Source: a virus
Taxonomy: Duplodnaviria; Caudoviricetes
IMG/VR virus record: IMGVR_UViG_3300042542_005523
DNA: 64,000 bases
Reading direction: 5' to 3' (one strand)
The notes beneath the pieces were generated by a model that worked only from the letters and a program-made list of their open reading frames with translations, searched no databases and was not told where the DNA came from. This document shows, one piece after another, positions 24,241 to 61,559 of this stretch. Positions within the stretch are counted from its first letter, which is position 1, and each line of letters opens with the position of its first letter. Both the position numbers and the translations under genes were made by a program.

Positions 24241-24245
24241 CAAAC

Positions 24246-24274
24246 GAAACAAAGATACCTCTTAATTGTATAAT
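24246..24274 (+). promoter_or_regulatory. Candidate middle promoter GAAAC-N18-TATAAT upstream of the glycosylation cluster
   Basis: GAAAC 24246-24250, TATAAT 24269-24274. This places the real start at GTG 24290 rather than TTG 24266. Confidence 0.7.
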
Positions 24275-24289
24275 AAGGAAAGGTACTTC

Positions 24290-30755: not shown

Positions 30756-31327
30756 TGGATTATAATTTTTTATGGGTACCTAAGACCACTTATCATAGGT
30801 CAGCACAAAGTCAGTTTGTTGTTGATGTTTTTCCTAAAATATTAAAAAATTTTGAATTGATAATTGAAATTGGAACATTTACAGGAGCGTTCACTTTATG
30901 GTTGTCTGAAAATAACTCTGATAGTTGTAAAATAATCTCTTACGATATTAATCCTGATTATTGTGAAGTTAATAATCTTAAAGATACCGAATTAAGAATT
31001 GGAGATTGTTTTGATATTGATGTTATGAAAGATATTCGTGATCTAATTAACAATTCGGGTAGAACTCTTTTTTTATGTGACGGAGGGGATAAGGAACTTG
31101 AGTTTAGATTATATTCAAAGTACTTGAAAAAGGATGATGTTATAATGCTCCACGATTATTCACATAGTGATGAAGAGTATAATATTATTAAACAAAAAAT
31201 AAACTGGCCAACAAATTCAGAATCACACTATAAGAATATTGAAAGATACTTACCTGAACTTAATTTAAGTACATATATGTATGATGATTTTAAACAAGTT
31301 TTATGGGGTTCGTTTATAAAAAATTGA
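30755..31327 (+). CDS. Class I SAM-dependent methyltransferase
   Basis: IIEIGTFTGA, ISYDI, IGDC, LFLCDGGDK, IMLHDY. Confidence 0.7.
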   Translation: MDYNFLWVPKTTYHRSAQSQFVVDVFPKILKNFELIIEIGTFTGAFTLWLSENNSDSCKIISYDINPDYCEVNNLKDTELRIGDCFDIDVMKDIRDLINNSGRTLFLCDGGDKELEFRLYSKYLKKDDVIMLHDYSHSDEEYNIIKQKINWPTNSESHYKNIERYLPELNLSTYMYDDFKQVLWGSFIKN

Positions 31328-31328
31328 T

Positions 31329-32048
31329 ATGAATTATAAGATTAAATTAGTTCATTTACAGACAACACAGAATGAACATAGAGAAAAACTATCACGAAAA
31401 TCTATACAACAAGTAATACCTTATGGCATTGAATATGTTTTGCATCAGAACGAGCTGTATACCTCCTTACCTCCAGTTCATACAAGTGTTAGACCACATA
31501 ATGTTAGGATCGGTAAGTATGAAGATGTTAATGACCCTGAATATGGGAACGCATTAACTCCAGCTCACTACGGATGCTTTGAGGCTTTTAAAATTGGTAT
31601 CCTATCAGAATTTGATAATGATTTAGATTTCTTAATTGTCTGTGAGGGTGATTGTATAATAGAAGTACCCATTGAAGAATTTATAGATAAAGTTAATTGT
31701 GTATGTGGTATTGTTAATCAGGAAGATGTTTCTTATTTTTCATTTGGGGATACCAAAACTTTAGATTATGGGTGGCATCAATCAGATGTTGTTAGAGAAA
31801 TACCAAATCAGGATTTATTGTTTATTACTAATAAAATAATTGGTTTACAATGTGTTATGTTTTCAAAAAAATCACGTAAAATAATTATGGATCAATTAAG
31901 AACACATAGATGGGATTGTGCTGACACATTTTTTAATATGATATGTGGTGAACAAAGATTAACTATGGGTATTTTGAAAAAGAGAATAACAACACAAGTG
32001 GACGGAGAATCATTCATTGATAAAGAGTATAAAGTTTTTACAAAATAA
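31329..32048 (+). CDS. Probable glycosyltransferase (GT25-like/GT-A)
   Basis: AHYGCFEAF...LIVCEGDC resembles the GT25 GCxxSH...xEDD layout; cluster context. Confidence 0.5.
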   Translation: MNYKIKLVHLQTTQNEHREKLSRKSIQQVIPYGIEYVLHQNELYTSLPPVHTSVRPHNVRIGKYEDVNDPEYGNALTPAHYGCFEAFKIGILSEFDNDLDFLIVCEGDCIIEVPIEEFIDKVNCVCGIVNQEDVSYFSFGDTKTLDYGWHQSDVVREIPNQDLLFITNKIIGLQCVMFSKKSRKIIMDQLRTHRWDCADTFFNMICGEQRLTMGILKKRITTQVDGESFIDKEYKVFTK

Positions 32049-32049
32049 T

Positions 32050-32595
32050 ATGGCACACGAACAACAAAAGAATTTTTTTAAGAGGGTTAAAGATAAATAC
32101 CCAAGATATTTCACGGATGTAAAAGTTTTAGATATTGGTTCTTTGGATATAAATGGTTCAATAAGAGATTTATTTAATTACCCATTTTATTACGTTGGAT
32201 TAGATCTGGCACCTGGGAAAAATGTTGATGTGATTTGTCCTGGACATTTATATGATTCTGGATTTCAGTTTGATGTTGTTTCATCGGGTGAATGTTTTGA
32301 ACATGATATGTATTACGCAAGAACTATACAGAATATGGTTAGACTCCTTAAGTCTGGTGGTTTAATGGTTTTTACTTGTGCGTCAACAGGGAGACATGAG
32401 CATGGTACATTAAGAACTACTCCTGATAACGCACCTTTCTTGGGTGATATTAGTGAAAAGTGGGCAAATTACTATAAGAATTTAACTGAAGATGATATTA
32501 GGTCAGTTATTGATGTTAATGATATTTTCAATGACTTTGGATTTGAATATGAACCAGTAACTTGTGATTTATATTTTTGGGGGATTAAAAAATGA
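32050..32595 (+). CDS. SAM-dependent methyltransferase (type 11-like)
   Basis: VLDIGSLDING, VGLDLAPGKNVD, FDVVSSGECFEHD, LLKSGG. ATG 32050 (MAHEQQ) is preferred over 32017. Confidence 0.85.
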   Translation: MAHEQQKNFFKRVKDKYPRYFTDVKVLDIGSLDINGSIRDLFNYPFYYVGLDLAPGKNVDVICPGHLYDSGFQFDVVSSGECFEHDMYYARTIQNMVRLLKSGGLMVFTCASTGRHEHGTLRTTPDNAPFLGDISEKWANYYKNLTEDDIRSVIDVNDIFNDFGFEYEPVTCDLYFWGIKK

Positions 32596-33287
32596 TTGAT
32601 ATAGATGTTATTTGTCTTACAAATACTATTTCCGATGACTTATATTGGATGACTCGTCGAACATTAATGACCATACATGATTCTGAAAAAGATTATAAAT
32701 TTCATATTCATTTAATAGAAACAAATTCTGAAAGTGGTTACGATTATTTAGATATTGTTGAAAATTATGTAAAACCAAATGAAAAATTTAATTACAATAG
32801 ATTTTTAAATCATTCCTATCCGTATGTTAAACACGATTGGGTTATTATAACTAATAATGATGTGAGATATGAACGAGGTTGGTTTTCAAAAATAATTGAT
32901 GTATATACTAAAAGACCTGATGTTGAATCTTTTTCACCTAAATGTCCGATACTTTATTCAAAATATTTTTTTGATGATTTTTTAGGAGGTGATTTAGATT
33001 TTCATGAGAGTGTTGGAACTAGCGTACATCTAATGGGTTGGTCGTTAATTATGAAAAAAAGAGTATTTGATATTGTTTATCCTTGGGATGAAAACTTTGA
33101 CATGTACTACCAAGATAATGATTATGCTGAAATTTTATTAAAAAATAACATTAAACACGGTTTGGTTAGGGACTCAATAGCGACTCATTTAGAATCACAA
33201 ACTATAAAATATAAATTTAATTCAAATACAATTGATAATCTTAGAGTAAAAAATTATTTTTACAATAAATGGGGAAAAGAAATTTAA
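32592..33287 (+). CDS. GT2 glycosyltransferase
   Basis: FNYNRFLN, VIITNNDV, WDENFDMYYQDND, ATH motifs. Confidence 0.8.
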   Translation: MIDIDVICLTNTISDDLYWMTRRTLMTIHDSEKDYKFHIHLIETNSESGYDYLDIVENYVKPNEKFNYNRFLNHSYPYVKHDWVIITNNDVRYERGWFSKIIDVYTKRPDVESFSPKCPILYSKYFFDDFLGGDLDFHESVGTSVHLMGWSLIMKKRVFDIVYPWDENFDMYYQDNDYAEILLKNNIKHGLVRDSIATHLESQTIKYKFNSNTIDNLRVKNYFYNKWGKEI

Positions 33288-33288
33288 T

Positions 33289-35424
33289 ATGAAAATTACA
33301 CAAGTAACACCAGGAATTATTACGATACCTCCAAACGGTTGGGGGGCAGTTGAAAAAGTTATATGGGAATATTATAACAACATTAAAGAATTAGGACACG
33401 AATGCGATATAAGATATCTTAATGATACTAAGGGTAGTAATAGTGATATTGTTCACATTCATATGGCTAATTTGGCAATTGAAGCTGCTAATCAAGGGAT
33501 ACCCTATATTTTTTCATTACATGACCACCACGTTGTTTATTATGGTAAGAAGTCATCTAACTACCAACAAAATTTAGAAGCGATTAAAAGATCAGTAATA
33601 TCTTTTACACATGCTGAGATTTTGGTAGACTATTTTGATGAAACAGATAAGTTGTTCTATCTATCCCATGGTGTTAATACCGGGTTCTTTAAAAATAATA
33701 ATCCAAAAAGAACTGAACATAAACTATTGTGCTTGGCAAATAATGGTATCGGAGGTGATTCAACGTATGATAGAAAAGGATTTAGGTATGCTATCGAAGC
33801 GGCAATAAAATTGGATTTACCAATTACGGTTGCTGGTCCGGAAAACAATAGAATATTCTTTGAACACCACAATGACTTATTAAATTATGATAAGCTAACT
33901 TTAATGTTTTCAAATCCAAACGAAGAACAGATATTAGAACTTTATAAAAGTCATTCTATATTCTTACACCCGTCTATATTGGAGGCAGGACATCCAAACC
34001 TTACATTACTTGAAGCGGTATCTTGTAATATGCCAGTTGTTGGTACTTACTCGGGTTCACAAAAAATTGAAGGAATGGTTGTGGTTGAAAGGGATGTAAA
34101 TCAAATTGTTAATGGAGTTAAACAAGTAATTGATAATTATGATTTATATCTAAATAACACTGAATTAGATAGACAAAAATACGATTGGAGTGTTATTACA
34201 AAGAGAATGGTTAGAATTTATGGAGACCTTATGGATAGTAAGAAAAATTTAAATAGTCTTGAAACCAAACAAAAATTTGATAGAGTGTTTGAAAATACAG
34301 AAATTAAACCAGTGGAAATGGTTGAAAAAATTGAGATAATTAACCACTATATAAACGGAGCGTTAGTTGAAATTAAAGGAAATACCGATAAAAAATATTT
34401 GGTTGAGTTTTGGAACCAAAATGGTGAATGTGAATATCGTGAGGAGATTGGTTGTAATATGTGGGTTAAACTAAACAAGAAATATTTTGATGAGTATACT
34501 TTAAAAGTTTATTCTGACGGTCACTTGATTAGTGAAAAGAAATATAATGCTGAGAATAAAAGAGTTTATATTGCCTTAGATTCGAAATCTTTGGGAGACA
34601 CTTTTGCTTGGGTCCCATACGCTGAGGAATTTAGAAAGAAACATAACTGTAAGGTTGTTTGTTCAACATTCTTTAATGATTTATTTGTTAAACAATATCC
34701 TGAAATACATTTTGTTCACCCTGGTAGTATTGTTGATAACCTATATGCGATGTATGAGATAGGTTGGTTTTATGACGGTGATAATGTTAAAATGGATAGA
34801 CATCCAAGTGATTTTAAATTAGGTCCGTTACAAAAAACTGCCACAGATATTTTAGGGTTGGAATATAAAGAAGTTAAACCTTTAATTAAAAATCCTAACA
34901 AGTTAAAGAAAAAAAGAGTTGGATTAGGCATTCATTCAACTGCTCAGTCTAAGTATTGGAATAATCCAAAAGGCTGGCAAGATGTTACTGATTATTTGAT
35001 TTCACTTGGATATGAGGTGATTATCTACTCAAAAGAAGAAGATGGGTATATGGGTAATTTTTATCCAAAAGGTGCTAAACAAAACCCTCCTGACTCAATC
35101 TATAAACTTATTGAAGAACTGTCAACATGTGAATTCTTTATAGGTATATCAAGTGGTATTTCATGGGTGACCTGGGCGTTAGACATACCGACAGTATTGA
35201 TTTCTGGATTTACTGAAGAGTTTAATGAACCTTATGAGAATGTGTATAAGGTTAGTGCTCCTGAAAATACTTGTAGAGGATGTGCAAATAAGTTTAGATT
35301 AGACCCAGGTGATTGGAACTGGTGTCCTGTAAATAAGGGAAATGAAAAGATGTTTGAATGTTCTAAAAAGATAACATCTGAAATGGTGATAAATGTAATT
35401 AAAAGAGAGGGATTAGCAAAATGA
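33289..35424 (+). CDS. Fusion: GT4 glycosyltransferase + TibC/AAH-like (autotransporter O-heptosyltransferase family) protein glycosyltransferase
   Basis: N-half: IPPNGWGAVE, RKGF, FLHPSILEAGHPNLTLLEAVSC (GT4). C-half: YIALDSKSLGDTFAW, FIGISSGISWVTWA, LISGFT, CRGC...WCP...FECSKKI four-Cys metal site. Confidence 0.8.
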   Translation: MKITQVTPGIITIPPNGWGAVEKVIWEYYNNIKELGHECDIRYLNDTKGSNSDIVHIHMANLAIEAANQGIPYIFSLHDHHVVYYGKKSSNYQQNLEAIKRSVISFTHAEILVDYFDETDKLFYLSHGVNTGFFKNNNPKRTEHKLLCLANNGIGGDSTYDRKGFRYAIEAAIKLDLPITVAGPENNRIFFEHHNDLLNYDKLTLMFSNPNEEQILELYKSHSIFLHPSILEAGHPNLTLLEAVSCNMPVVGTYSGSQKIEGMVVVERDVNQIVNGVKQVIDNYDLYLNNTELDRQKYDWSVITKRMVRIYGDLMDSKKNLNSLETKQKFDRVFENTEIKPVEMVEKIEIINHYINGALVEIKGNTDKKYLVEFWNQNGECEYREEIGCNMWVKLNKKYFDEYTLKVYSDGHLISEKKYNAENKRVYIALDSKSLGDTFAWVPYAEEFRKKHNCKVVCSTFFNDLFVKQYPEIHFVHPGSIVDNLYAMYEIGWFYDGDNVKMDRHPSDFKLGPLQKTATDILGLEYKEVKPLIKNPNKLKKKRVGLGIHSTAQSKYWNNPKGWQDVTDYLISLGYEVIIYSKEEDGYMGNFYPKGAKQNPPDSIYKLIEELSTCEFFIGISSGISWVTWALDIPTVLISGFTEEFNEPYENVYKVSAPENTCRGCANKFRLDPGDWNWCPVNKGNEKMFECSKKITSEMVINVIKREGLAK

Positions 35425-35690
35425 AAAGCGTAAATTTACCAGAGGAAATCCTGTTAGAAATTCAGGATTTATTAGCTAGAATTAACTATTCTAAAATGGA
35501 TTTAGGTGAAGCCCACCTAGCAGTTTCTAATTTTGAAAAAGAATTGGAAAATTTAAAATCGGAGAGAGAAAAAAAGATAGCTGTCTGTGTAGATCTAGAA
35601 GAGGAGAAGACCAGGCTAGTGATGAGAATAGTCGAGACCTACGGGGAAGGAGATCTTGATCTTAACAGTGGCAAGTATTTCGTAAAGTAA
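35421..35690 (+). CDS. Small coiled-coil hypothetical protein
   Basis: 89 aa, heptad-like core, C-terminal YGEGDLDLNSG. Confidence 0.65.
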   Translation: MKSVNLPEEILLEIQDLLARINYSKMDLGEAHLAVSNFEKELENLKSEREKKIAVCVDLEEEKTRLVMRIVETYGEGDLDLNSGKYFVK

Positions 35691-39053: not shown

Positions 39054-40898
39054 ATGGCGGAAGAAACAAACAAGAATCAGCCGGAGCTAAATGATGGTAA
39101 TTATTGGAGCACGGCTAAAGTTAACGAGTTACTCAGAAAAGCAGACGAGGAAGGGCTAGATTTCAAGAGTGTAGATAATCCTTTCCATGACAATAATCCT
39201 GAGCTAAGAAGATCTAATGTACTATTCGAGTACACACAGGAGGAGATAATAGAAATTGACAAGTGCGCAAGGGACGTTATCTACTTTTCAAAATATTGTC
39301 AGGTTGTGACCGATACGGGTCTTGCTTATATTACTCTGAGGGAATACCAAGAATCGGTATTAAGAGAATATCAGGCCAATAGATTTAATATATTTCTAGC
39401 ACCCCGGCAGGTTGGTAAATCCATAATGTCCGCTGTTTTTCTGGTGTGGTTTTTACTTTTCAACCACGATAAAAATGCGATGATCCTGGCAAACGTTGGT
39501 GACACAGCAGAGGAATTGATGGATAAGATAAAGGCCATAATAAAAGGATTGCCTTTCTTTCTGAAGCCCGGAATGATGGTCAATAATGTAATGTCTGTGC
39601 GTTTTGATAACGGCTGTAGGGTTATTGCTAAAACGACCACTAAGACATCCGGTATCGGTTTTACTATTCATTTTTTATACATGGACGAGTTTGCTCACAT
39701 TAACTCATCCTTTATGGAAGCTTTCTTCAGGTCTACGTACCCCACGGTATCTTCCTCGAAGGTGTCCCGAATCATTATAACATCTACACCAAATGGAATG
39801 AATAAGTTCTATGAGATGTATATGAGCGCTGTTAAGAAAGAGAACACGTTCAATCCAATTAGGGTTGATTGGTGGCAGGTACCTGGTAGGGACGATGTGT
39901 GGAAACAGAATGAAATATCTAACCTTGGATCCGAGGAGCTATTTAATCAGGAGTACGGTAATCAGTTCTTAAGCTCCTCTACTTTGCTACTTGGATCACA
40001 GGAGTTACAGAAGATAAAAAGAAACGAGGTAGAGTATTTATGGAGGGAGATTGATGAATTTCATTACTCTGACGTAAATTATGAGAATTTTCTATGGCAT
40101 CCTAAATTTGATATAGATAGTGCTGCAGAAGGGAATAAAAAATATGTTGTATCCGTAGATCTCTCAGGTGGAAACAAGGGTGATTTTACAGTCATTAATG
40201 TTTTTAAGGTCTCTCCTCTTCCAAAGAAAGTGATAGAAAGAATAGGAGAATTTGAGGACGAGGGTGATTTCTTTGGCCTTATTCAGGTTGGTATATTAAG
40301 GGACAACGAGATAAAACTGGAGGATGTAGTTAAGATACTTAGAATACTGGTAAAGAATGTACTAGGTGTCGAATCTGTGAAAATAGCTCTTGAGATAAAT
40401 TACAAGGGAGAGCTTCTGGTTGATAAGTTTCTTGCTGACGAGGATCTTTTTGAGGAAATTTTTGTTTACACTAAGCATTCTGAATCTGCTAGATCTTCTA
40501 AAGCTGGTATAAAATACAATGAAAAGAACAAGATGAAAAACTGTGAGCAGCTCAGAACACTTGTTAGAGCAGACAGAATATTGGTGAATGATAAGAAATG
40601 GACAGTACCTGAGCTATTCACATTCGGGCTGAATTCAAGAGGAACATATTCCAGCCAAACAGGTCATGATGACGTTGCTATGTCCCTGGTTAATCTCTCC
40701 TCTGCTTTTGAAAGTGGCGATTTCTACCAACTGGTCGGAGAACTTTTTGATGCGATGGAAACCCCATATAAAGGATTAATATTAAATAAAATGGGGGAAA
40801 CCGGGCAATCCCAATCTTCTGATGAATTTGGATTCGGAAACCAAGGTCCTTCTACCAAGGACGGAAAAAGCTTTAGGGACTTTAGTTCCATGATGTAG
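39054..40898 (+). CDS. gp17: Terminase large subunit
   Basis: APRQVGKS Walker A, LYMDEFAHI Walker B, ITSTPNG, VDWWQVPGRD, VSVDLSGG, GHDDVAMS nuclease motifs. Confidence 0.95.
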   Translation: MAEETNKNQPELNDGNYWSTAKVNELLRKADEEGLDFKSVDNPFHDNNPELRRSNVLFEYTQEEIIEIDKCARDVIYFSKYCQVVTDTGLAYITLREYQESVLREYQANRFNIFLAPRQVGKSIMSAVFLVWFLLFNHDKNAMILANVGDTAEELMDKIKAIIKGLPFFLKPGMMVNNVMSVRFDNGCRVIAKTTTKTSGIGFTIHFLYMDEFAHINSSFMEAFFRSTYPTVSSSKVSRIIITSTPNGMNKFYEMYMSAVKKENTFNPIRVDWWQVPGRDDVWKQNEISNLGSEELFNQEYGNQFLSSSTLLLGSQELQKIKRNEVEYLWREIDEFHYSDVNYENFLWHPKFDIDSAAEGNKKYVVSVDLSGGNKGDFTVINVFKVSPLPKKVIERIGEFEDEGDFFGLIQVGILRDNEIKLEDVVKILRILVKNVLGVESVKIALEINYKGELLVDKFLADEDLFEEIFVYTKHSESARSSKAGIKYNEKNKMKNCEQLRTLVRADRILVNDKKWTVPELFTFGLNSRGTYSSQTGHDDVAMSLVNLSSAFESGDFYQLVGELFDAMETPYKGLILNKMGETGQSQSSDEFGFGNQGPSTKDGKSFRDFSSMM

Positions 40899-44342: not shown

Positions 44343-44897
44343 ATGGCAGGCTTACCACATTTTTCAAACTCGATCTCATCGATGAATAACTTTGAACCGG
44401 TTTACTTAAACCAGTTTGAGGTAGTAATAAATCCACCAGCTGCTGTAGCTGGTGGACCTATTCTTTTACAGCACGTAACCAAGGTTTCTGGTATGGATGT
44501 AGATAAAAATCCAGCGCCTGTAGCTCAGAAGTACAAGTTTGCAAAAAGAAACTACGCGGGAGCTAAACCAGATACTACTGGAATGACTCTTTCCATGAGT
44601 TTCACTGTTAACTTGAACGATGCTAATTCTATGTATGTTTTTAAAACACTAAGACAATGGACGGATCTTATTTATAATCCTCTAACTGGAGCAATGGGTG
44701 TTAAGAACGACTACGTAGGATCAATAGTTATCTCAATCTTTAATAAAAACGGTGACGTTTTTAAAAGAGTAGTTTGTAAAGACTGTTTCCCTGTGAGTTT
44801 TATTTCCCCAATGAATCTAAGCTATGCAGCAGAAGAGGTTTGGAAGATAGATAATTTGGAATGGGCAGTGGATTATTGGGAAGATCTATTCCTATAA
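44343..44897 (+). CDS. gp19: Tail tube protein, paralog 1
   Basis: Follows the sheath; NQFEV, YAG, TLRQW.DLIYNPLTG, FNKNG, W..DYW. Confidence 0.85.
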   Translation: MAGLPHFSNSISSMNNFEPVYLNQFEVVINPPAAVAGGPILLQHVTKVSGMDVDKNPAPVAQKYKFAKRNYAGAKPDTTGMTLSMSFTVNLNDANSMYVFKTLRQWTDLIYNPLTGAMGVKNDYVGSIVISIFNKNGDVFKRVVCKDCFPVSFISPMNLSYAAEEVWKIDNLEWAVDYWEDLFL

Positions 44898-44912: not shown

Positions 44913-45488
44913 ATGTCAGGATTACCACACTATACTAATTCTCAAGCTGCTATACAGCTTTACGAGCCAGTTTATCTTAACCAGTTCGAGGTTATTATTA
45001 ATACCCCTGCGGGTGTTCAGCAGTTACCCGGTTTAAATGGTGAATTGATACTTACCCAACAGGTTAAATCTGTATCAGGTATGGCCGTTGATATACAGCC
45101 ATCTGGACCAGTTGAACAGTTCTATAAGTTCGCTACTAGAAGATATGCAGGGGGTGAGCCTTCTCAGACTGACATGGATTTAACCCTGGAATTTGAGGTT
45201 AACCTTAACGAATCCAATTCGATGACTGTGTATAGGACTCTTAGACAATGGTCGGATCTTATCTATAACCCATTGACTGGTGCTATGGGACTTAAGCGTG
45301 ATTATGTTGGATCTATGGTTATATCCATATTCAATAAGCAGGGTGATGTTTTTAGAAGAATAAGAATACCGGTTTGCTTTATAAGTGCCCCAATAACACC
45401 TTTGGAGCTAGATTATGATCAGGGAGCTAGTATCTATAGTATCAGTATTCAATGGAAATGTGATTACTGGGAAGATCTTTTCTTATAA
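44913..45488 (+). CDS. gp19: Tail tube protein, paralog 2
   Basis: Aligns end to end with paralog 1 (EPVYLNQFEV, TLRQWSDLIYNPLTGAMG, DYWEDLFL). Confidence 0.85.
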   Translation: MSGLPHYTNSQAAIQLYEPVYLNQFEVIINTPAGVQQLPGLNGELILTQQVKSVSGMAVDIQPSGPVEQFYKFATRRYAGGEPSQTDMDLTLEFEVNLNESNSMTVYRTLRQWSDLIYNPLTGAMGLKRDYVGSMVISIFNKQGDVFRRIRIPVCFISAPITPLELDYDQGASIYSISIQWKCDYWEDLFL

Positions 45489-48997: not shown

Positions 48998-49612
48998 ATG
49001 ATAGAACAGAAAGAGAAGGTTGAGAAAAACATCCAAAAACTTGCAGGGAATTTCCTATTCGAGAAGAACGAGAAATCATTCAAAGAACTTTTTGAGAGAT
49101 TGAGACCCGGTGTATTGAATCACTGCTACGTTATTCTAAAAGACAGGGAATTAGCGGAGGATGCTTTCATTAACACAATGACCAAGATCTGGACTAAAAT
49201 AGATCAATATGACGATGAGAGAGGTAATTTCTCTACGTGGTGTTATAATATTGCACGTAATGAGAGCTTATTGCTAATTAAATCTAGGAACAAATACGTT
49301 TCACAGAATGAAAAGGAATTGGATTTTCATTCAATTAAGCATGATTCAATCATGGGCGAGCATTATGTTCTAGAAAATTCAATTGATTATGCTTTTTTCA
49401 ATGAAGAGAACACTGTTGATGCCGTATATGAGGCGGTCATAGACGAAATAAGAACATTACCTGAACTCTACCGAGACATTATGGTAGACCGAGAGATAAA
49501 TGGTATGAAATACAAGGACATAGCGATCAAATATGGTATCAAGAAAAGATCCATAGCTACGAGAATAAGAAGAGCAAGAGCTAAGATCAAGAAAAAAATG
49601 GGGAAACCTTAA
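48998..49612 (+). CDS. ECF-type sigma-70 factor
   Basis: Region 2 AEDAFINTMTKIWTKIDQYD..RGNFSTWCYNIARN; region 4 LPELYRDIM...GMKYKDIA...IATRIRRAR. Confidence 0.9.
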   Translation: MIEQKEKVEKNIQKLAGNFLFEKNEKSFKELFERLRPGVLNHCYVILKDRELAEDAFINTMTKIWTKIDQYDDERGNFSTWCYNIARNESLLLIKSRNKYVSQNEKELDFHSIKHDSIMGEHYVLENSIDYAFFNEENTVDAVYEAVIDEIRTLPELYRDIMVDREINGMKYKDIAIKYGIKKRSIATRIRRARAKIKKKMGKP

Positions 49613-52648: not shown

Positions 52649-53338
52649 ATGGCAGATTACCCACAGATCCAACAGGAGTCAAATAACTTAAATTACGACG
52701 GAGGAGGTAGTACAGGCGGTACATATACCCAAACTGTACAGGGTGGATCTACTAGTGCGCCAGTTTTCACACCTGGTGCTTGTACTTTTACTGCTAGATA
52801 CACTAACGTTGCTCGAACAAGGGAAGCATTACCGCTGATAGATTGGACGTTTAAGTATAAGAACCAACCTGCTTTTTTTAAATACTTCAAGTCCTCTTTT
52901 AATGTGTGCCTGCAGTCAAATGTGATGGATACTCTGAGCTTAGCTTCTTTTTTTCATCCTTTTCTTTCTTTCTCTAGTTACCAAAAGCAAACATTTGTAA
53001 TAGCTCCGGATACTTCAATCGATGTAGATACTGGTAATTTTGCCAACACATTAAACGAGGTTAGCTTTATATTGGCAAGAGCTTATTATCTACCGACACA
53101 AAAGGGAGCTGCTAGAGTATTATTTTGGGACTACGACGGAAACACTAGATACCCGATGGGTGAAATAATGGTTTTAACCGGCGCTGTAAAAGAGGATCAG
53201 AATTGGAAGGGGTGGAATATAAGTTCTTTCTCTAATATAGGTCACACAGGTCCTGTATCCAATCCTAGTTTGGGTGGCATCACCTTTACAAACCCAACCG
53301 AATCGCCAGTTAAACTGGTAGTAATAACAGCAAACTAA
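52649..53338 (+). CDS. Hypothetical late protein, paralog of the next gene
   Basis: VSFILARAYY...FWDYDG...PMGEIMVLTG...GWN...GGITFTNP; GATAAATA at 52629. Confidence 0.7.
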   Translation: MADYPQIQQESNNLNYDGGGSTGGTYTQTVQGGSTSAPVFTPGACTFTARYTNVARTREALPLIDWTFKYKNQPAFFKYFKSSFNVCLQSNVMDTLSLASFFHPFLSFSSYQKQTFVIAPDTSIDVDTGNFANTLNEVSFILARAYYLPTQKGAARVLFWDYDGNTRYPMGEIMVLTGAVKEDQNWKGWNISSFSNIGHTGPVSNPSLGGITFTNPTESPVKLVVITAN

Positions 53339-53339
53339 T

Positions 53340-53825
53340 ATGGCAACAAGACCCGTTATATGTCCCTATATAGAACCAGAGGGATTGAAATTCGAAAGAA
53401 CTAACCTGGTTATAGATTCAAACAGCATGATGAATCCTCAAATAGTGCTTATGTTAGAGGATTTGTTATTTGATGTTCCTGCATATTCAAAATCCACAAT
53501 AAATCTTAGAGCTGAATCCTGCGCACTGATAAGCCAGTCGGACATAGCGGATCCTGGAGGGTACGTTAGCTTTATAGCTATTAAAGCAGTATACCCAGCT
53601 GGGACTTTAGAAAAAGACAAGTTCATTACATGGGAGTACAGGGGCAATGAATATTTTATGGGCGAACTTACTGTATTGAGCGGTGTTAATATCACAACTT
53701 TTGATTCTGAGCAATATGGATGGAATCTGGCTAAACCTGGACCAGTATACCAGGACGGAGGCATAACGGTGTGTAATCCCCACTTAGATAAAAGGGTAAT
53801 TTTAGAGATATTGGTTTGCAGATAA
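53340..53825 (+). CDS. Hypothetical late protein, paralog of the previous gene
   Basis: VSFIAIKAVY...TWEYRG...FMGELTVLSG...GWN...GGITVCNP. Confidence 0.7.
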   Translation: MATRPVICPYIEPEGLKFERTNLVIDSNSMMNPQIVLMLEDLLFDVPAYSKSTINLRAESCALISQSDIADPGGYVSFIAIKAVYPAGTLEKDKFITWEYRGNEYFMGELTVLSGVNITTFDSEQYGWNLAKPGPVYQDGGITVCNPHLDKRVILEILVCR

Positions 53826-56745: not shown

Positions 56746-57105
56746 ATGGCAAAAGTTTATGTTAAAAACAGTGAGCTCCTTAGAGCCGTATCCGAATCTA
56801 AAGAGAAGGGTCAGCTAACAAGAGAGACAATCGATATGTTTACCCTCATGATAGAAGGTATTTCTAAGAAGATGGCTTACAAGGATCCTGACGATAAGGA
56901 CGATTGTATGGCTTTTGCCATGGAGGATCTTTGCAAATATTGGAATAGATTTGACCCTGCTAAATCTAACAATCCATTTGCCTACTTCACTCAGGTTGCA
57001 AAGAATGGATTTGCTAAGGGATGGAAGAAATTACACCCGCCAAAGAATCCTAAAACTATACCCTTCAGTTATATAACAGGGGAGGATAATAGTTACAACG
57101 TTTAA
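56746..57105 (+). CDS. gp55: Late-transcription sigma factor (gp55-like, compact)
   Basis: YVKNSELL, DDCMAFAMEDLCKYWNRFDPAKSNNPFAYFTQVAKNGF matches the gp55 FDP.KS.NPFAYFTQ signature. Confidence 0.85.
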   Translation: MAKVYVKNSELLRAVSESKEKGQLTRETIDMFTLMIEGISKKMAYKDPDDKDDCMAFAMEDLCKYWNRFDPAKSNNPFAYFTQVAKNGFAKGWKKLHPPKNPKTIPFSYITGEDNSYNV

Positions 57106-57106
57106 T

Positions 57107-57592
57107 ATGTCCATAAAAAAGGTTAAACCTAACGGAAAACACAAACATGGGCTTTATAGTCCACAGAATCCCGATAAGTACATAGGTGATATACATAATA
57201 TCATTTATAGATCTTCGTGGGAGCAGAGATTCTGTGCATATTGCGATAGAAACGAAAGGATAGTTAAATGGAGCTCTGAACCTCTTTTTATAGATTACTG
57301 GAATCCATTAGATAAGAAAATGCACAAATACTATGTGGATTTTTACATAAAGACTCTAAAAGAAGACGACACCTATCAGGAGTGGATAATAGAGGTTAAG
57401 CCAGAGTCACAAACTCAAAAGCCGATATACGAGGGTAAAAATATGACTCTTAAAAAACTAGAGAGCTATAACTATAATATGAAAATATGGATAACAAATC
57501 AGGCAAAATTTAAAGCTGCTAAAGAATGGGCTATCCAAAGAGGTTTTAGATTTGGCGTAGTTGACGAGAAATTTCTTTTTAATAGTAAATGA
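57107..57592 (+). CDS. gp4: Head completion nuclease (gp4-like, TnsA-type)
   Basis: KYIGD...IIYRSSWE...KWSSEP...YYVDF...EVKP...NQAKFKAA. Confidence 0.85.
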   Translation: MSIKKVKPNGKHKHGLYSPQNPDKYIGDIHNIIYRSSWEQRFCAYCDRNERIVKWSSEPLFIDYWNPLDKKMHKYYVDFYIKTLKEDDTYQEWIIEVKPESQTQKPIYEGKNMTLKKLESYNYNMKIWITNQAKFKAAKEWAIQRGFRFGVVDEKFLFNSK

Positions 57593-58233
57593 GCTTTTCT
57601 GAAAAAATAAAATCATACAAGGACGGATTCATATCCCAATCTGAGACTGTTTCTAAAACTGACGAGTATTTTATAAGCTCCTATATAAAGTTATCGAACA
57701 GGGATTTTCGACCTGAAAAGTTCGACGGCCAATTTCTTCCCGGTAAGATCTATATTTTTAGATATAATCCTAAGCAGAAACCCGATGACGGTAAAAAAAA
57801 GGAGAAGGAGTTCATAAACAGACTACCGATAGTTTTAGCTTTTGATGTTAAGAAATCAAAAGATCTAAACAACATCCTATATGGATCGGATTTAATAGCT
57901 ACCCCACCTGATGAAAGAGTTAAGATATTGGAGAGGGTCTATGATTTTTCAGAGAGCATAATAGATTCTAATAAAAAATCGGGAAGCCAATCTCCCGTGA
58001 ACCTAAGTGGTGATAATGTAAAGTCTTTATTGAAAGGTACTGGGTATATTGGAAGCACTAAAGGATTCGATATTTCATCAATGTCTGAAGTCTATGTTAT
58101 AGGCTATGATGATTGGAAAAAAATACCATATCTTAGTGTAGCCCTTCTTCAAGGGTCTTCTCCGATTGAGATATATAATTCCTATAGATCGAAATTAAAA
58201 GATAATTCTGGTCTAGAAAATAAAAATAAGTAG
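57589..58233 (+). CDS. DNA end-protector protein (gp2-like)
   Basis: PGKIYIFRYNPK...LPIV...PPDERVKIL resembles gp2; adjacent to gp4. Confidence 0.55.
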   Translation: MSFSEKIKSYKDGFISQSETVSKTDEYFISSYIKLSNRDFRPEKFDGQFLPGKIYIFRYNPKQKPDDGKKKEKEFINRLPIVLAFDVKKSKDLNNILYGSDLIATPPDERVKILERVYDFSESIIDSNKKSGSQSPVNLSGDNVKSLLKGTGYIGSTKGFDISSMSEVYVIGYDDWKKIPYLSVALLQGSSPIEIYNSYRSKLKDNSGLENKNK

Positions 58234-58236: not shown

Positions 58237-59811
58237 ATGGCTGGTTTTATAGATAACGAAAATGGTAATCCGGTATTTCAGAGGATTAGGGAATCTGTTA
58301 AGTCGATCTCTAAGTTCGGTATGAAATACGAGGACATGGTGATTAAGAACTCCATGGCTGTTGGCGCTACTGAAGCTGCTTTCATTAATCAGAACAAAAC
58401 AAACGTTCCTGATGAGAATATGATGTATAGTCTTGCGAAGCAAGATACTATGGTCAAACAGTATATCTCTTATTTCGACAAGGATTATAAGGGAAAGAGG
58501 GATTATCTTAGGAAATTCTCTCTTAACCCAGAGATAGAAGGAGTTCTTGATATTGTTTGTGACGAATCCATAAACTACGACCCTTCTAATTATTACGCAT
58601 ATCCCGATTTTCTAGATATAACTACTCTAAAAGAAAAAACAAGAGAAAAGGTTTATGACGTTTTTAGAAAAATATATGACATCTGGGGATTTAGCGATGA
58701 TATAACAGCATGGCAATTCTTTAGACAATTCATGGTGGACGGATTCCTTGCATTTGAAATAATCTGGGACAATAGGGGGAAAGAGATAATTGGATTTAAA
58801 GAATTGGACGCTACTTCTTTAATACCTAGCGTAGAAAAACAACCAGACGGAAGACATGTCAACGTTTGGATACAATTTCCGAATGACCCTAAAAAGACAA
58901 GAATGCTATATGACTCCCAGATCATATACATGTCTTATGCTAAGGGAAATTCAGTTTCCAGATTAAGTTATGTTGAGAGATTAATTAGACCTTATAATAC
59001 CCTAAGAATTATAGAATACACTAGGGTAATTTGGTCAGTGATGAATGCTTCATTCAAGCTTAAAATGACCGTTCCTGTTGGATCAAGATCACCTCAGAAA
59101 GCTATGCAGACCTTGGGTGAACTTATGAGTATCTATAAGGAGGATATTAGCTTGAGCGATGATACTGGTGAATTGCTAGTTGACGGAGCACCTAAGATAC
59201 AATTCTATAAGAATTATCTGATACCACAGGGCCAAAACGGTCAACCTACAATTGAGCCCTTGACAATGGAGGGACCGAACTTAAATGATCCTGCCCCTCT
59301 TGCATATTTCTACGATAGATTCATAGAGGAATCTAAAATACCTGCTACAAGATTTAAGGGGTTAGATGGATCTTCTAGTGCAACATATTCCAACACTGCG
59401 GATGGCCTGGACAAGGAAGAGGTAAGATTTAGTAAGTTCATAAGTAGATTGAGAACCAATTTTCAGGATATCATTATAAAGCCACTTTGGTTACAAATAT
59501 GTAAAGACAATCCGGAATTAGAAAAAGATCTAGTTTTTAAGAGCCAGCTTGGACTTAAGTACATCAGTGAGAACCCTTTTAGGGTAAACCAGGAGATGGA
59601 ATTGATCACCAAGAGAAAAGAAAGCGTAGATTCGCTAGCTCTTATAATGGAAGACGACGATAAACCTTATTTTTCGCAGACTTACTTAATTGAGAATTTT
59701 CTCGGACTTACACCTGCAGACATTAAAGCTAACAAGATAGCAAAAGAAAAGAATGCCAAGAAGAAAGAGAAGGAAGGCGGGGAGGAAGAAGCACCAGAAG
59801 TTACTTTATAA
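58237..59811 (+). CDS. gp20: Portal protein, paralog 1
   Basis: LRKFSLNPEIEGVLDIVCDE, FRQFMVDG, SYVERLIRPYNTLRIIE, IQFYKNYLIP, ESKIPATRF, EEVRFSKFISRLR (gp20 pattern); 524 aa. Confidence 0.88.
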   Translation: MAGFIDNENGNPVFQRIRESVKSISKFGMKYEDMVIKNSMAVGATEAAFINQNKTNVPDENMMYSLAKQDTMVKQYISYFDKDYKGKRDYLRKFSLNPEIEGVLDIVCDESINYDPSNYYAYPDFLDITTLKEKTREKVYDVFRKIYDIWGFSDDITAWQFFRQFMVDGFLAFEIIWDNRGKEIIGFKELDATSLIPSVEKQPDGRHVNVWIQFPNDPKKTRMLYDSQIIYMSYAKGNSVSRLSYVERLIRPYNTLRIIEYTRVIWSVMNASFKLKMTVPVGSRSPQKAMQTLGELMSIYKEDISLSDDTGELLVDGAPKIQFYKNYLIPQGQNGQPTIEPLTMEGPNLNDPAPLAYFYDRFIEESKIPATRFKGLDGSSSATYSNTADGLDKEEVRFSKFISRLRTNFQDIIIKPLWLQICKDNPELEKDLVFKSQLGLKYISENPFRVNQEMELITKRKESVDSLALIMEDDDKPYFSQTYLIENFLGLTPADIKANKIAKEKNAKKKEKEGGEEEAPEVTL

Positions 59812-59825
59812 ATAAAAAAATAGAA

Positions 59826-61475
59826 ATGGCAGGATTTATAGATCCCATACAACCAAATAGTGCATTCGGAACGATACTGAGAAGTCTTTCTCAGATATCT
59901 AGGTTTGGTATGAAGTACGAGGATATGGTTGTTAGGAATTCACAGGCCATAGGTAAAACCGAATCTGAATTCTTCAATGAGCAGGGAACAGGATTTACAG
60001 AAAGTGATGCTTTTTATTGGACGGTTTCTCATTCTGATACGAAGGTAAGAAAGTACATAGCTTATTTTGATAAGGATTACATAGACAAAAGAAACTTTCT
60101 TAGGAAGTTTTCGCTAAACGGTGAGATTGAGTTTATACTCGATACGGTAACTGATGAAGCTGTGGTTTACGACGAGAAGAATTATTTTGCATATCCTGAG
60201 ATCAAGAATTTGGACGTAAGCGATAAGGTAAAAGATAAACTGATGGAGAATTTTTACCGGATCTATCATCTTTTCAATTTTCAGGAAAGTATATTAGCTT
60301 GGCAGGTATTTAGGCAGCTCCTAATTGATGGGTTTCTAGCTTATGAGATAATCTACGATAGCAGAGGCAAGCAAGTCATTGGATTTAAAGAACTCGATGC
60401 AACATCACTTCAGCCTATGGTTGAAAAAGTTGGCGAAAATGATTTTCAGCAGGTTTGGGTTCAGTATCCAAAGAATCCCCAGATGACAAGAAAGCTTAAG
60501 AATGAGCAGGTTATCTACATATCATATGCTAAAGGTAATTCAATTTCCAGGGTAAGTTATGTTGAGAGATTAGTTAGATCCTATAACATCCTGAAAATAA
60601 TGGAGAACAGTAGGATTATATGGAATGTCATGAACGCTTCATATAGATTGAAGTTTGTTATACCTATAGGTACACAGTCACCACAAAAGGCCATGCAAAC
60701 GCTAGGACAAATAATGTCTTATCATAAAGAGGAGATATCTATAAACGACAATTCAGGGGAATTGACTGTTAACGGAAGACCAAAAATTCAGTTCTATAAA
60801 AACTATCTTTTCCCTGAGAAGGATGGTGTTTCCCCTACCATAGAAACACTAAATGCAGCTGGACCTGATTTTAATATCATGGACAACGTGCTTTACTTCT
60901 TCAATAAACTAAAGCAAGATTCTAAAATACCGTATGCGAGATTTGCTTATAGAGGTGGAACACCTGCAAACAACCAAATTAGCATTGATTCTTTAGAAAG
61001 AGATGAGATAAGGTTCGAGAAGTTTCTTTCCAGATTGAGATCGATTTATCAGGAAATCATAGTTAAGCCTCTTTATATACAAATGTGTCTTGATTATCCT
61101 GAGCTTGTAAAAGATAGAAGCTTTAAAACTAATCTTGGAATTAATTTCGTAAGGGAAAGCGAATTCAACGATCTGGTTGAACTTGCTAATCTAGTTAAAA
61201 GAGGGGATTTTATAAAATCTCTTGCTGACATGAAAGTTAAAGTTGGTGAAGAAGAGCAGCCTTATTTTGATAAAGATTTCCTTGTTCAGAGATTTTTAGG
61301 TCTAACACCGGAGCAGATAGAGGGCAATGCTTCATACAAAGAGCTCGAAGCTAAATCTGCTAAAAAGGAAAGCTCTACTAGCGGAGCTGAGGGCGAGGCA
61401 GCTCCAGCGGAAGAAGAAGCGGCAGCTCCAGCGGAAGAAGAAGCGGCAGCACCCGCTGAGGAAAAGACTGCATAG
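59826..61475 (+). CDS. gp20: Portal protein, paralog 2
   Basis: Colinear with paralog 1 (FGMKYEDMV, LRKFSLN, GFKELDATSL, SPQKAMQTLG, IQFYKNY, DEIRFEKFLSRLR); 549 aa; TATAAATA at 59807. Confidence 0.88.
   Translation: MAGFIDPIQPNSAFGTILRSLSQISRFGMKYEDMVVRNSQAIGKTESEFFNEQGTGFTESDAFYWTVSHSDTKVRKYIAYFDKDYIDKRNFLRKFSLNGEIEFILDTVTDEAVVYDEKNYFAYPEIKNLDVSDKVKDKLMENFYRIYHLFNFQESILAWQVFRQLLIDGFLAYEIIYDSRGKQVIGFKELDATSLQPMVEKVGENDFQQVWVQYPKNPQMTRKLKNEQVIYISYAKGNSISRVSYVERLVRSYNILKIMENSRIIWNVMNASYRLKFVIPIGTQSPQKAMQTLGQIMSYHKEEISINDNSGELTVNGRPKIQFYKNYLFPEKDGVSPTIETLNAAGPDFNIMDNVLYFFNKLKQDSKIPYARFAYRGGTPANNQISIDSLERDEIRFEKFLSRLRSIYQEIIVKPLYIQMCLDYPELVKDRSFKTNLGINFVRESEFNDLVELANLVKRGDFIKSLADMKVKVGEEEQPYFDKDFLVQRFLGLTPEQIEGNASYKELEAKSAKKESSTSGAEGEAAPAEEEAAAPAEEEAAAPAEEKTA
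61398..61445 (+). repeat. 24-bp tandem repeat x2 (AAPAEEEA) in the portal-2 tail
   Basis: gcagctccagcggaagaagaagcg at 61398 and 61422. Confidence 0.85.
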
Positions 61476-61520: not shown

Positions 61521-61548
61521 AAACCGTCGGAATACCTACGGTTTTTTT
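61521..61548 (+). terminator. Intrinsic terminator after the portal genes
   Basis: aaaccgt...acggttt followed by a T run. Confidence 0.7.
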
Positions 61549-61551
61549 ATT

Positions 61552-61559
61552 TATATTTG
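61552..61559 (+). promoter_or_regulatory. Possible Bacteroidota-type -7 element TAnnTTTG
   Basis: TATATTTG 24 nt before the ligase ATG. Confidence 0.4.

What the first reader, a model, noticed from the sequence alone, without database searches (positions are those of the whole stretch)
58237..61475. Two adjacent full-length portal (gp20-like) genes
Seen: 524-aa and 549-aa proteins, colinear and roughly half identical by eye. Both are intact and each has a late-promoter-like motif upstream (GATATATA 58170, TATAAATA 59807). Known: tailed phages normally have one homo-dodecameric portal at one vertex. Inference: a heteromeric ring, two specialised portal vertices (e.g. packaging versus ejection), or a stacked or alternative portal. 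The divergence with both copies intact implies an old, selected duplication.
Basis: partly seen in the sequence, partly recalled or inferred. Interest (0 to 1): 0.82.

Follow-up and report, generated by a model that had tools for sequence, protein, structure and literature searches.

The report
Conserved tandem pair of portal genes
A clade of uncultured huge phages (complete genomes 270-430 kb) always carries two adjacent, full-length, strongly conserved portal genes, and also two tail-tube genes, where known tailed phages have one; this suggests, but does not show, that their DNA channel is built from mixed rings of two proteins.

Summary
Window 58237-59811 (524 aa, "A") and 59826-61475 (549 aa, "B") are intact T4 gp20-family portal genes. 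They are 50% identical and 14 nt apart on the same strand.

The pair is neither an artefact nor recent. I found 81 distinct A-B pairs in IMG/VR contigs, always in the order A then B. Five complete 270-430 kb genomes each hold exactly two portal genes. A and B form two reciprocally monophyletic clades from one duplication. Their stem branches are equal in length and dN/dS is about 0.02 for both. Both keep wing, stem, clip, tunnel loop and crown. The nearest outgroups have one portal in the same gene order. None of 2,111 sequenced phage records with a gp20 match has two full-length copies.

The tail-tube gene is duplicated in tandem with the same phyletic pattern. Terminase is single, and so is sheath in the one complete genome screened for paralogs.

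The promoter claim fails: TATAAATA occurs at chance frequency and is not conserved upstream of B.

Best reading, inferred only: A and B co-assemble into one hetero-dodecameric portal. Fixed A/B differences concentrate in the stem helices and tunnel loop, not in the capsid-facing wing. No precedent turned up in the literature library searched.

The parts
58237..59811 (+). Portal paralog A (524 aa, P0001). T4 gp20 family, with the complete set of N-terminal region, wing, stem, clip, tunnel loop and crown.
   Evidence: PF07230 2e-56. PHROG 213. The AF2 model best matches T4 gp20 entries 9mkb/6uzc/3ja7, E 1e-16 to 1e-12. Orthologs form one clade, SH-aLRT 100. dN/dS 0.024.
59812..59825 (+). 14-nt A-B spacer (TAAATAAAAAAATAGAA context) with no room for an independent promoter plus leader.
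   Evidence: Sequence read. In 81 related pairs the spacer is -1 to 23 nt, most often 9 nt (27 pairs) or 4 nt (16 pairs).
59826..61475 (+). Portal paralog B (549 aa, P0002). T4 gp20 family, same domain set as A, with an acidic Ala/Glu-rich C-terminal tail.
   Evidence: PF07230 3.6e-64. phmmer against T4 gp20 chains gives 4e-19. The AF2 model best matches T4 gp20, E 3e-18 to 1e-13. Orthologs form one clade, SH-aLRT 100. dN/dS 0.018.
61521..61555 (+). Weak terminator-like hairpin followed by a T-run, downstream of B. It may mark the end of the gp55-like to portal B transcription unit.
   Evidence: Read by eye. Fold energy -10.2 kcal/mol, z = -1.5. The consensus scan did not call it. Weak evidence only.
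57589..58233 (+). gp2-like DNA end protector. Its stop codon lies 3 nt before the ATG of portal A.
   Evidence: PHROG 429, 9e-8. The equivalent gene in relatives carries Pfam Phage_T4_gp2. Sequence read.
57107..57592 (+). gp4-like head-completion nuclease (TnsA-like N-terminal domain).
   Evidence: PHROG 218 head closure, 2e-45. PF08722, 1.5e-17.
56746..57105 (+). gp55-like late sigma factor, the first gene of the conserved block gp55-gp4-gp2-portal(s).
   Evidence: PHROG 234, 2.7e-15. The same order is seen in single-portal outgroup L190 and in L191.
44343..44897 (+). Tail-tube paralog 1 (184 aa), the first gene of a second tandem pair with the same phyletic pattern as the portal pair.
   Evidence: PHROG 32623 and tail tube PHROG 45. 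57% identical to its neighbour. Two copies in all 5 complete genomes and one copy in 5 single-portal outgroups.
44913..45488 (+). Tail-tube paralog 2 (191 aa).
   Evidence: BLASTP 1e-78 against paralog 1. Conserved in tandem in G002-G006.
39054..40898 (+). Terminase large subunit, not duplicated, so there is one packaging motor for two portal proteins.
   Evidence: PHROG 5989, 8e-56. One full-length copy in each of 5 complete genomes.

Best explanation
Shown: the two genes come from one ancient tandem duplication of the T4 gp20-type portal gene. It became fixed in a clade of uncultured huge phages whose complete genomes are 270-430 kb. Both copies are complete portal proteins under equally strong purifying selection, always adjacent and in the same order. 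Inferred: they are co-transcribed. Also inferred: both proteins are made together and co-assemble into a single hetero-oligomeric portal ring at the one portal vertex, most simply an alternating A6B6 dodecamer with true six-fold symmetry. After the duplication, reciprocal changes in the ring core (stem helices alpha5 and alpha7, clip base, tunnel loop) would have made each copy dependent on the other. This kind of entrenchment is known for other ring complexes that arose by gene duplication. The capsid-facing wing and the clip tip that docks terminase and neck stayed the same in both copies, because both sit in the same vertex and serve the same single terminase. The parallel tandem duplication of the tail-tube gene suggests the tube may likewise be built from two proteins.
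For: (1) Both copies are full portals: Pfam and PHROG matches, profile and fold matches to T4 gp20, the same order of secondary-structure elements, and all domains conserved in both clades. (2) One old duplication: A (70 rows) and B (68 rows) are each monophyletic at SH-aLRT 100, with all single-copy relatives outside. The stems are equal, 0.50 and 0.47. (3) Neither copy is ever lost: there are 81 distinct pairs, apparent singletons are all contig-end cuts, 5 of 5 complete genomes have exactly two, and a deeper lineage (L191) also has the pair. (4) Strong selection on both: median dN/dS 0.024 and 0.018. Distances within A and within B co-vary at r = 0.95, and A-to-B identity within a genome stays at about 46-53%, so there is no sign of gene conversion. 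(5) Tight linkage: spacers of -1 to 23 nt and no conserved promoter. This fits co-transcription, and co-transcription would make comparable dosage plausible. (6) Fixed A/B differences (27 sites) are 9-fold enriched in stem, tunnel loop and alpha8-9 (16 differing against 44 shared) over N-terminus plus wing-1 (3 against 76), Fisher p = 1e-4. In T4 the wing contacts the capsid and the tunnel loops contact neighbouring subunits (PMC4493910). (7) Derived states are split evenly, with A ancestral at 7 sites and B at 8. They fall in different elements: A changed in alpha5; B changed at the clip base, in the clip helix, in the channel loop and in alpha7. So neither copy is the unchanged original. (8) The clip-tip motif G-x-x-S-P-Q-K, which aligns with T4 N291-K296 (the gp17 docking site), is conserved in both. 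Terminase is single-copy.
Against: No physical evidence of co-assembly exists. There are no virion proteomics, no structure and no cultured member. The claim that A-derived and B-derived sites face each other across one interface is therefore untested. The enrichment of fixed differences in the channel core would also fit two separate homomeric rings with different channel properties. No fused A-B protein was found among longer proteins, although that search is weak. No heteromeric portal is known in any virus as far as I know and as far as the library search shows, so the prior is low.
Confidence: 0.5

Rival explanations
1. Alternative portals. Each virion contains a homo-dodecamer of either A or B, so the phage makes two particle types or uses one portal per condition or host. 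Each portal might be matched with one of the two tube paralogs.
For: The tube gene is duplicated with the same phyletic pattern, which could give two alternative sets. Both copies keep every portal element, including the clip tip, so each could work alone.
Against: There is no means of differential expression: spacers are -1 to 23 nt and no promoter is conserved. In the T4 virion structure (PMC12929629) neck proteins and terminator rings lie between portal and tube, so by that analogy a matched portal-tube set has no obvious structural basis. Terminase is not duplicated, and no full-length sheath or neck paralog appeared in the all-vs-all screens. Bet-hedging variants would be expected to be lost in some lineages, yet none of 81 pairs or 5 complete genomes shows loss.
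Confidence: 0.18
2. Two separate homomeric rings in the same virion at different places. One would be the canonical portal. The other could be a second ring stacked on it (inside the head or in the neck) or sitting at a second special vertex, for example packaging versus ejection.
For: Both proteins look able to form rings. Fixed differences in the tunnel loop and stem could tune two channels differently. Huge capsids may need extra internal architecture.
Against: The wing and N-terminal region, which embed the portal in the capsid in T4, show almost no fixed A/B differences (3 against 76 shared). A ring in a different environment should have diverged there. The clip tip is conserved in both, although a stacked or internal ring would not need to dock terminase and neck. 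There is one terminase. No second set of neck genes was seen in the all-vs-all screen. No tailed phage is known to have two portal vertices (my own knowledge).
Confidence: 0.15
3. One copy is not a virion component. It acts only during assembly or infection, for example as a nucleation or chaperone ring, or as a decoy for host defences that sense portal proteins.
For: No direct evidence. It is allowed because virion composition is unknown. A partial portal-like ORF elsewhere in the 735-kb phage LR756501 shows that portal-derived genes can take on other roles.
Against: [quoted passage not shown] The stem branches are symmetric and derived changes are split 7 to 8. This is unlike neofunctionalisation of one copy.
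Confidence: 0.1
4. Redundant recent duplicate or assembly artefact with no special meaning.
For: Tandem duplicates can arise by recombination or misassembly.
Against: The copies are 50% identical at the protein level. There are 81 distinct pairs from many contigs. The A and B clades are reciprocally monophyletic. dN/dS is about 0.02 in both.
Confidence: 0.02

Closest known systems
Bacteriophage T4 gp20 portal (Pfam PF07230; PDB 3JA7, 6UZC, 9MKB)
   Same: Same family and fold. Same domain plan of wing, stem, clip, tunnel loop and crown. The clip-tip motif is conserved. T4-type partners are nearby (gp2, gp4, gp55, gp17-type terminase, gp18 sheath, gp19 tube).
   Different: T4 has one portal gene forming a homo-dodecamer, and so does every one of 2,111 INPHARED records with a gp20-type match, apart from a partial second hit in one 735-kb phage. 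Here there are two diverged paralogs, 50% identical to each other and 15-20% identical to T4 gp20 in the structural alignments. They are fixed as a pair.
Single-portal huge phages of the same superfamily (LR756500 462 kb, LR756501-504 and LR745206 635-735 kb, Lak phages, and the lineage of contig L190)
   Same: These are the closest relatives of both A and B (33-48% identity). L190 has the same gene order gp55-gp4-gp2-portal-clamp loader.
   Different: The five LR genomes searched in full have one full-length portal and one tail-tube gene each. Lak phages show one portal match per record, and L190 has a single portal between gp2 and the clamp loader. The clade of the window has two of each.
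T4 gp23/gp24 (major capsid protein and its vertex paralog), as a precedent for structural-gene paralogs that specialise within one virion
   Same: A duplicated structural gene with both copies retained and both built into the same particle. A small second Gp23-like gene also exists in 4 of 5 complete genomes here.
   Different: gp23 and gp24 occupy different lattice positions (hexamers versus pentamers). A portal has only one ring per virion, so the two paralogs must either share that ring or occupy a site not described in any known phage.
Hetero-oligomeric rings that evolved from homo-oligomers by gene duplication (eukaryotic or archaeal CCT, proteasome alpha/beta rings, the V-ATPase proteolipid ring, heterotrimeric PCNA). 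Cited from my own knowledge.
   Same: The evolutionary signature matches: the paralogs always co-occur, both are under purifying selection, their divergence is symmetric, and reciprocal fixed changes sit in the ring core.
   Different: Those are cellular machines with demonstrated co-assembly. For viral portals no such case is described, and co-assembly here is only inferred.
Tube paralogs of extracellular contractile injection systems (Afp1/Afp5, Pvc1/Pvc5) and T4 tube-initiator proteins gp48/gp54. Cited from my own knowledge.
   Same: They offer an ordinary explanation for the second tube gene: one paralog forms the tube proper and the other forms a special ring at the baseplate.
   Different: Here the two tube genes are 57% identical, of nearly equal length and 15 nt apart. 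That arrangement suggests similar dosage, not one ring per tail. The tube duplication also arose in the same clade as the portal duplication.

Membership tests
T4 gp20-type portal protein (PF07230 Portal_T4) | Sequence match to the family profile above the curated cut-off, over most of the profile | tested here: met
   A: 192 bits over profile positions 7-427 of 433. B: 217 bits over positions 6-427 of 433. The cut-off is 22.9 bits. PHROG 213 portal also matches.
T4 gp20-type portal protein (PF07230 Portal_T4) | Portal fold, with solved portals as the best structural matches | tested here: met
   The Foldseek top hits for both models are T4 gp20 chains (9mkb, 6uzc, 3ja7) at E 1e-12 to 3e-18, followed by other phage portals. 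Caveat: the models are of moderate confidence (pLDDT 62 and 59), and the clip region is poorly modelled in the monomers.
T4 gp20-type portal protein (PF07230 Portal_T4) | Complete domain set: wing, two stem helices, clip, tunnel loop, crown | tested here: met
   The alignment to T4 gp20 numbering was combined with the domain limits from PMC4493910. Every domain is present and conserved within both the A and B clades.
T4 gp20-type portal protein (PF07230 Portal_T4) | Clip tip that docks the terminase and neck (T4 N291, M292, R295, K296) | tested here: inconclusive
   The aligned segment G282-x-x-S285-P-Q287-K288 is invariant or nearly so in all 45 A and B sequences, so both copies conserve this site. 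The residues differ from T4, and binding was not tested.
T4 gp20-type portal protein (PF07230 Portal_T4) | Assembles as a dodecameric ring at one capsid vertex | not testable with these tools
   This needs expression and electron microscopy, or virion analysis.
T4-like (Straboviridae-type) morphogenesis module | T4-type partner genes in the neighbourhood | tested here: met
   The window holds gp55-like sigma, gp4-like nuclease, gp2-like end protector, gp17-type terminase, gp18-type sheath, gp19-type tube, a gp14-type neck domain, and UvsX, gp41, gp46/47, gp44 and ligase homologs.
Obligate hetero-oligomeric ring formed by duplicated paralogs | Both paralogs present in every genome of the clade, with no losses | tested here: met
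   81 distinct pairs. 5 of 5 complete genomes have exactly two copies. All apparent singletons are contig-end cuts.
Obligate hetero-oligomeric ring formed by duplicated paralogs | Both paralogs under purifying selection, with symmetric, reciprocal divergence | tested here: met
   dN/dS is 0.024 and 0.018. The stems are 0.50 and 0.47. Derived fixed states are split 7 to 8.
Obligate hetero-oligomeric ring formed by duplicated paralogs | Physical co-assembly of the two proteins in one ring | not testable with these tools
   No coordinates, proteomics or expression data are available. This is the decisive open point.

The most novel reading that the evidence does not exclude
The portal vertex of these phages is an obligate A6B6 hetero-dodecamer, a portal with built-in six-fold instead of twelve-fold symmetry. 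The tail tube is likewise built from two alternating paralogs. Both ring assemblies whose genes were duplicated, portal and tube, would then have been converted from homomeric to heteromeric rings in one ancestor. That would be the first heteromeric portal in any virus.
Probability: 0.4. Interest if true: 0.88.

Novelty: new variant of a known kind. Interest (0 to 1): 0.75.

Why it matters
The homo-dodecameric portal encoded by a single gene is among the most constant features of tailed phages and herpesviruses. Models of capsid nucleation, symmetry mismatch (12 against 5 and 12 against 6), packaging-motor docking and genome gating all assume twelve identical subunits.

A whole clade that has kept two diverged portal genes, and two tube genes, under strong selection means one of two things. 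Either a portal ring can be heteromeric, or a virion can use two portal rings. Either would be new, and either would give a natural experiment on how ring symmetry matters for packaging and ejection of very large genomes.

It is also directly testable without culturing the phage, by co-expressing the two genes. On the practical side, annotation pipelines and marker-gene surveys that count the portal as a single-copy gene will double-count this clade.

Tried and rejected
1. Complex prediction with A (81-500) and B (81-502) gave "no answer" (score 0.17 against a mark of 0.32). I use it neither for nor against binding.
2. A megablast of the region against INPHARED phages found no match, so there is no close cultured or deposited relative.
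3. The search for fused A-B proteins among longer proteins found none. The tool itself rates this as weak evidence.
4. Pfam Terminase_6C found nothing in the related genomes. I then identified the terminase with PHROGs and searched with the window's own protein.
5. The promoter idea is rejected. TATAAATA is at chance frequency and not conserved. Sigma-70-like hits are no more frequent than in shuffled sequence.
6. The terminator after B is weak (z = -1.5) and was not called by the scan. I keep it only as a possibility.
7. A protein-atlas look-up of the third tandem pair (229-aa member) gave no usable hit.
8. Literature searches for two portal proteins, portal paralogs, duplicated portal or heteromeric portal returned nothing relevant. 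The 'moraphage' paper (PMC12619734) lists the portal as a core gene and does not mention duplication. I cannot say whether it covers the same lineage.
9. The first dN/dS script, using Biopython, timed out. I replaced it with my own NG86 implementation.
10. In the first tree Lak-C1 came out as sister of A+B, which is probably long-branch attraction. With more representatives, Lak groups elsewhere and the A+B clade stands at 99.
Full report
OBSERVATION. The window has two adjacent plus-strand ORFs, 58237-59811 (524 aa, "A", P0001) and 59826-61475 (549 aa, "B", P0002). They are colinear and 50% identical over 521 residues. Each matches Pfam Portal_T4 (PF07230) at 192 and 217 bits against a cut-off of 22.9, and each matches PHROG 213 "portal protein". 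A profile built from both finds T4 gp20 chains in the PDB at about 1e-23. P0002 alone finds them at 4e-19 and P0001 at 1.4e-9. AlphaFold2 models of both have moderate confidence (pLDDT 62 and 59), and the clip region is poor, as expected for a monomer of a ring protein. The two models have the same order of secondary-structure elements. Their best structural matches are T4 gp20 in 9MKB, 6UZC and 3JA7, followed by other phage portals.

CONTEXT. The window is part of a T4-superfamily phage genome. Upstream of A lie a gp55-like late sigma factor (56746-57105), a gp4-like head-completion nuclease (57107-57592) and a gp2-like DNA end protector (57589-58233). The stop codon of the gp2-like gene is 3 nt before the ATG of A. 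Downstream of B are an ATP-dependent DNA ligase and a clamp loader. Further upstream are a protein with a gp14-type neck domain, one terminase large subunit, a 1113-aa sheath and tail-tube genes. The closest deposited genomes are uncultured huge phages: LR756500 (462 kb), LR756501-504 and LR745206 (635-735 kb), and the Lak phages. No DNA-level match exists in INPHARED. The nearest IMG/VR record (62 kb, estimated 20% complete) carries the same pair.

THE PAIR IS CONSERVED ACROSS A CLADE. Two scans of IMG/VR returned about 200 stretches each. In the 156 loci kept, every locus that reaches far enough has an A-type gene followed by a B-type gene. The seven apparent singletons are all cut by a contig end, and where any sequence remains it encodes the N-terminus of B. 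That gives 81 distinct A-B pairs, with spacers of -1 to 23 nt, most often 9 nt (27 pairs) or 4 nt (16 pairs). Five genomes rated 99-100% complete (270-430 kb, two with terminal repeats) each have exactly two PF07230 matches, in tandem. By contrast, 2,111 INPHARED records have a gp20-type match but only 2,113 places in total. The two extra places belong to the two records of the 735-kb phage, and that second hit is a partial one, query residues 77-264 in a 342-aa ORF. No sequenced phage in that collection has two full-length gp20 genes.

ONE OLD DUPLICATION. In a maximum-likelihood tree of 146 sequences, A (70 rows) and B (68 rows) are each one clade with SH-aLRT 100, and all eight single-copy relatives fall outside. 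The stems from the duplication node are 0.50 (A) and 0.47 (B) substitutions per site, and the crown depths are 0.58 and 0.50. The two copies have therefore evolved at the same rate.

I then added 72 representatives from an exhaustive search of 1.84 billion cluster representatives. The A+B clade has support 99 and contains one further lineage, P0125, as sister of A. Its contig shows gp55-gp4-gp2, the A-like portal, and then the start of a second portal gene (96 aa, 44% identical to the N-terminus of B) before the contig ends. The pair therefore extends to a deeper lineage.

The nearest lineages outside are single-copy. Contig L190 reads gp55-gp4-gp2-portal-clamp loader, which is the same synteny with one portal. 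The P0127 contigs have a portal followed by an unrelated gene.

SELECTION. Nei-Gojobori dN/dS on ortholog pairs with 0.05 < dS < 1.5 has a median of 0.024 for A (36 pairs, maximum 0.052) and 0.018 for B (40 pairs, maximum 0.062). Pairwise distances among A orthologs and among the B orthologs of the same contigs correlate at r = 0.95. A-to-B identity within a genome stays at about 46-53% throughout. The copies therefore co-diverge, with no sign of gene conversion or exchange.

WHERE THE COPIES DIFFER. I used the T4 domain limits of Sun et al. 2015 (PMC4493910) and the alignment to T4 numbering. All domains are present and similarly conserved in both clades. There are 27 positions where A and B are each at least 90% conserved but differ from each other. 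These are concentrated in stem helix alpha5 (4 of 24 columns), stem helix alpha7 (4 of 14), the tunnel loop (3 of 27), alpha8-9 (5 of 51) and the clip (6 of 82). They are nearly absent from the N-terminal region (2 of 80) and wing-1 (1 of 166). Relative to positions conserved and shared by both, the core has 16 against 44 and the N-terminus plus wing-1 has 3 against 76 (odds ratio 9, Fisher p = 1e-4).

In T4 the wing makes the capsid contacts. The clip forms an inter-subunit beta-sheet and docks gp17 and gp13. The tunnel loops touch those of neighbouring subunits. The segment aligned with the T4 gp17-docking residues (N291-K296) is G-x-x-S-P-Q-K here, invariant or nearly so in all 45 aligned A and B sequences.

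I polarised the fixed differences with nine near outgroups. A keeps the ancestral state at 7 sites, B at 8, and 12 are unclear. The changes derived in A cluster in alpha5 (P252, Y261, S267). The changes derived in B lie at the clip base (F277, I279), in the clip helix (Q295), in the channel loop (F349) and in alpha7 (V355). Neither copy is the unchanged original.

A SECOND DUPLICATED RING PROTEIN. An all-against-all comparison of the window's ORFs, and of one complete 270-kb relative, shows very few full-length paralogs. The two most similar full-length pairs are the portal pair and a tandem pair of tail-tube genes (window 44343-44897 and 44913-45488, 57% identical, 15 nt apart). All five complete two-portal genomes have both tube genes in tandem. 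The five single-portal huge phages have one tube gene. No full-length paralog of sheath, terminase or neck genes appeared in that screen, and the terminase is single in all five complete genomes. A third, weaker tandem pair (window 52649-53338 and 53340-53825, 28% identical) has unknown function.

EXPRESSION SIGNALS. TATAAATA occurs 7 times in the window against 7.4 expected, and only twice on the coding strand. The copy at 59807 overlaps the stop codon of A and ends 11 nt before the ATG of B. It is found upstream of B in only 5 of 81 pairs, all close relatives of the window. GATATATA at 58170 lies inside the gp2-like gene. The layout has overlapping or abutting genes from gp4 to B, and a weak hairpin with a T-run after B. 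This points to co-transcription. That is an inference.

INTERPRETATION. Three things are shown. The tandem duplication of the portal gene is ancient and fixed. Both copies are complete portals under strong, equal constraint. The tube gene was duplicated in the same clade.

The mechanism is inferred. The most economical reading is that A and B are made together and co-assemble into one portal ring, most simply an alternating A6B6. Reciprocal changes in the ring core would have made each copy indispensable. The wing (capsid side) and the clip tip (terminase and neck side) stayed common because both proteins sit in the same vertex and serve one terminase. I put this at about 0.5.

The rivals are as follows:
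- Alternative homomeric portals in different particles (0.18). The lack of any regulatory separation and the absence of any loss weaken it.
- Two homomeric rings at different places in one virion (0.15). The near-identical wing and clip-tip constraints and the single terminase weaken it.
- One copy is a non-virion factor (0.1). The symmetric divergence and full domain retention weaken it.
- A meaningless duplicate or artefact (0.02). This is refuted.

A complex prediction for A with B returned no verdict and is not used as evidence.

COMPARISON WITH WHAT IS KNOWN. Both proteins are members of the T4 gp20 portal family. Sequence, fold and domain tests are met, and ring formation could not be tested. 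What differs from every described member is the fixed paralog pair. I found no report of duplicated or heteromeric portals in the full-text library. A comparative review of jumbo phages treats the portal as a single ortholog (PMC7824862).

The nearest conceptual precedents are T4 gp23/gp24, which are structural paralogs in one particle at different lattice positions, and cellular rings that became heteromeric after gene duplication (my own knowledge). For the tube pair, an ordinary alternative is a tube-initiator paralog as in Afp1/Afp5 (my own knowledge). The high identity, equal length and tight linkage of the two genes fit less well with a protein needed once per tail.

VERDICT. This is a real, conserved and apparently undescribed feature: a new variant of a known kind. 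It is surprising to a specialist and testable by co-expression of the two genes. Interest 0.75.

Noticed in passing
window 44343-44897 and 44913-45488: Tandem pair of tail-tube genes (184 and 191 aa), 57% identical and 15 nt apart. Both copies are present in all 5 complete genomes that have two portals. The 5 single-portal huge phages have one copy. The phyletic pattern matches that of the portal pair.
   Followed up: partly
window 52649-53338 and 53340-53825: Third tandem paralog pair (229 and 161 aa, 28% identical, E 1e-9), also present in the complete relative G006. It has no Pfam, PHROG or atlas match and its function is unknown.
   Followed up: partly
window 11528-23575: Giant 4015-aa ORF with G+C of 47-49% against about 36% for the rest of the window. 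A 2478-aa ORF is open on the opposite strand, which hints at repetitive or compositionally biased sequence. It follows a 364-aa protein whose N-terminus resembles tail-fibre and tail-spike proteins.
   Followed up: no
window about 24000-35500: Low-G+C block (28-32%) encoding proteins with methyltransferase, aminotransferase, GtrB-like and glycosyltransferase matches. It may be a surface- or DNA-modification island of different origin.
   Followed up: no
L007 1192-2220 (LR756501.1, about 142 kb): The 735-kb phage has, besides its full portal, a 342-aa ORF that is 37% identical to residues 77-264 (wing domain) of portal B. It lies between a thymidine kinase and an M16 peptidase and has no Pfam hit of its own. 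It is a portal-derived fragment gene in another huge phage.
   Followed up: partly
window 58237-58248 and 59826-59837, and all relatives: The N-terminus Met-Ala-Gly-Phe is invariant in all 45 aligned A and B sequences. It also starts the second portal gene of the deeper lineage L191. The reason for this strict conservation is unknown.
   Followed up: no
G006 253149-257406 (loci L188): Two runs of three tandem paralogs (196, 237 and 224 aa; 122, 135 and 168 aa; 34-49% identical) in the complete 270-kb relative. They are not in the window and their function was not examined.
   Followed up: no
window 48998-49612 and 56746-57105: The window encodes two sigma-factor-like proteins: a 204-aa protein matching an RNA polymerase sigma factor PHROG and the 119-aa gp55-like late sigma. 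The T4 late-promoter consensus is nevertheless not enriched, so the late promoter motif of this clade is probably different.
   Followed up: no
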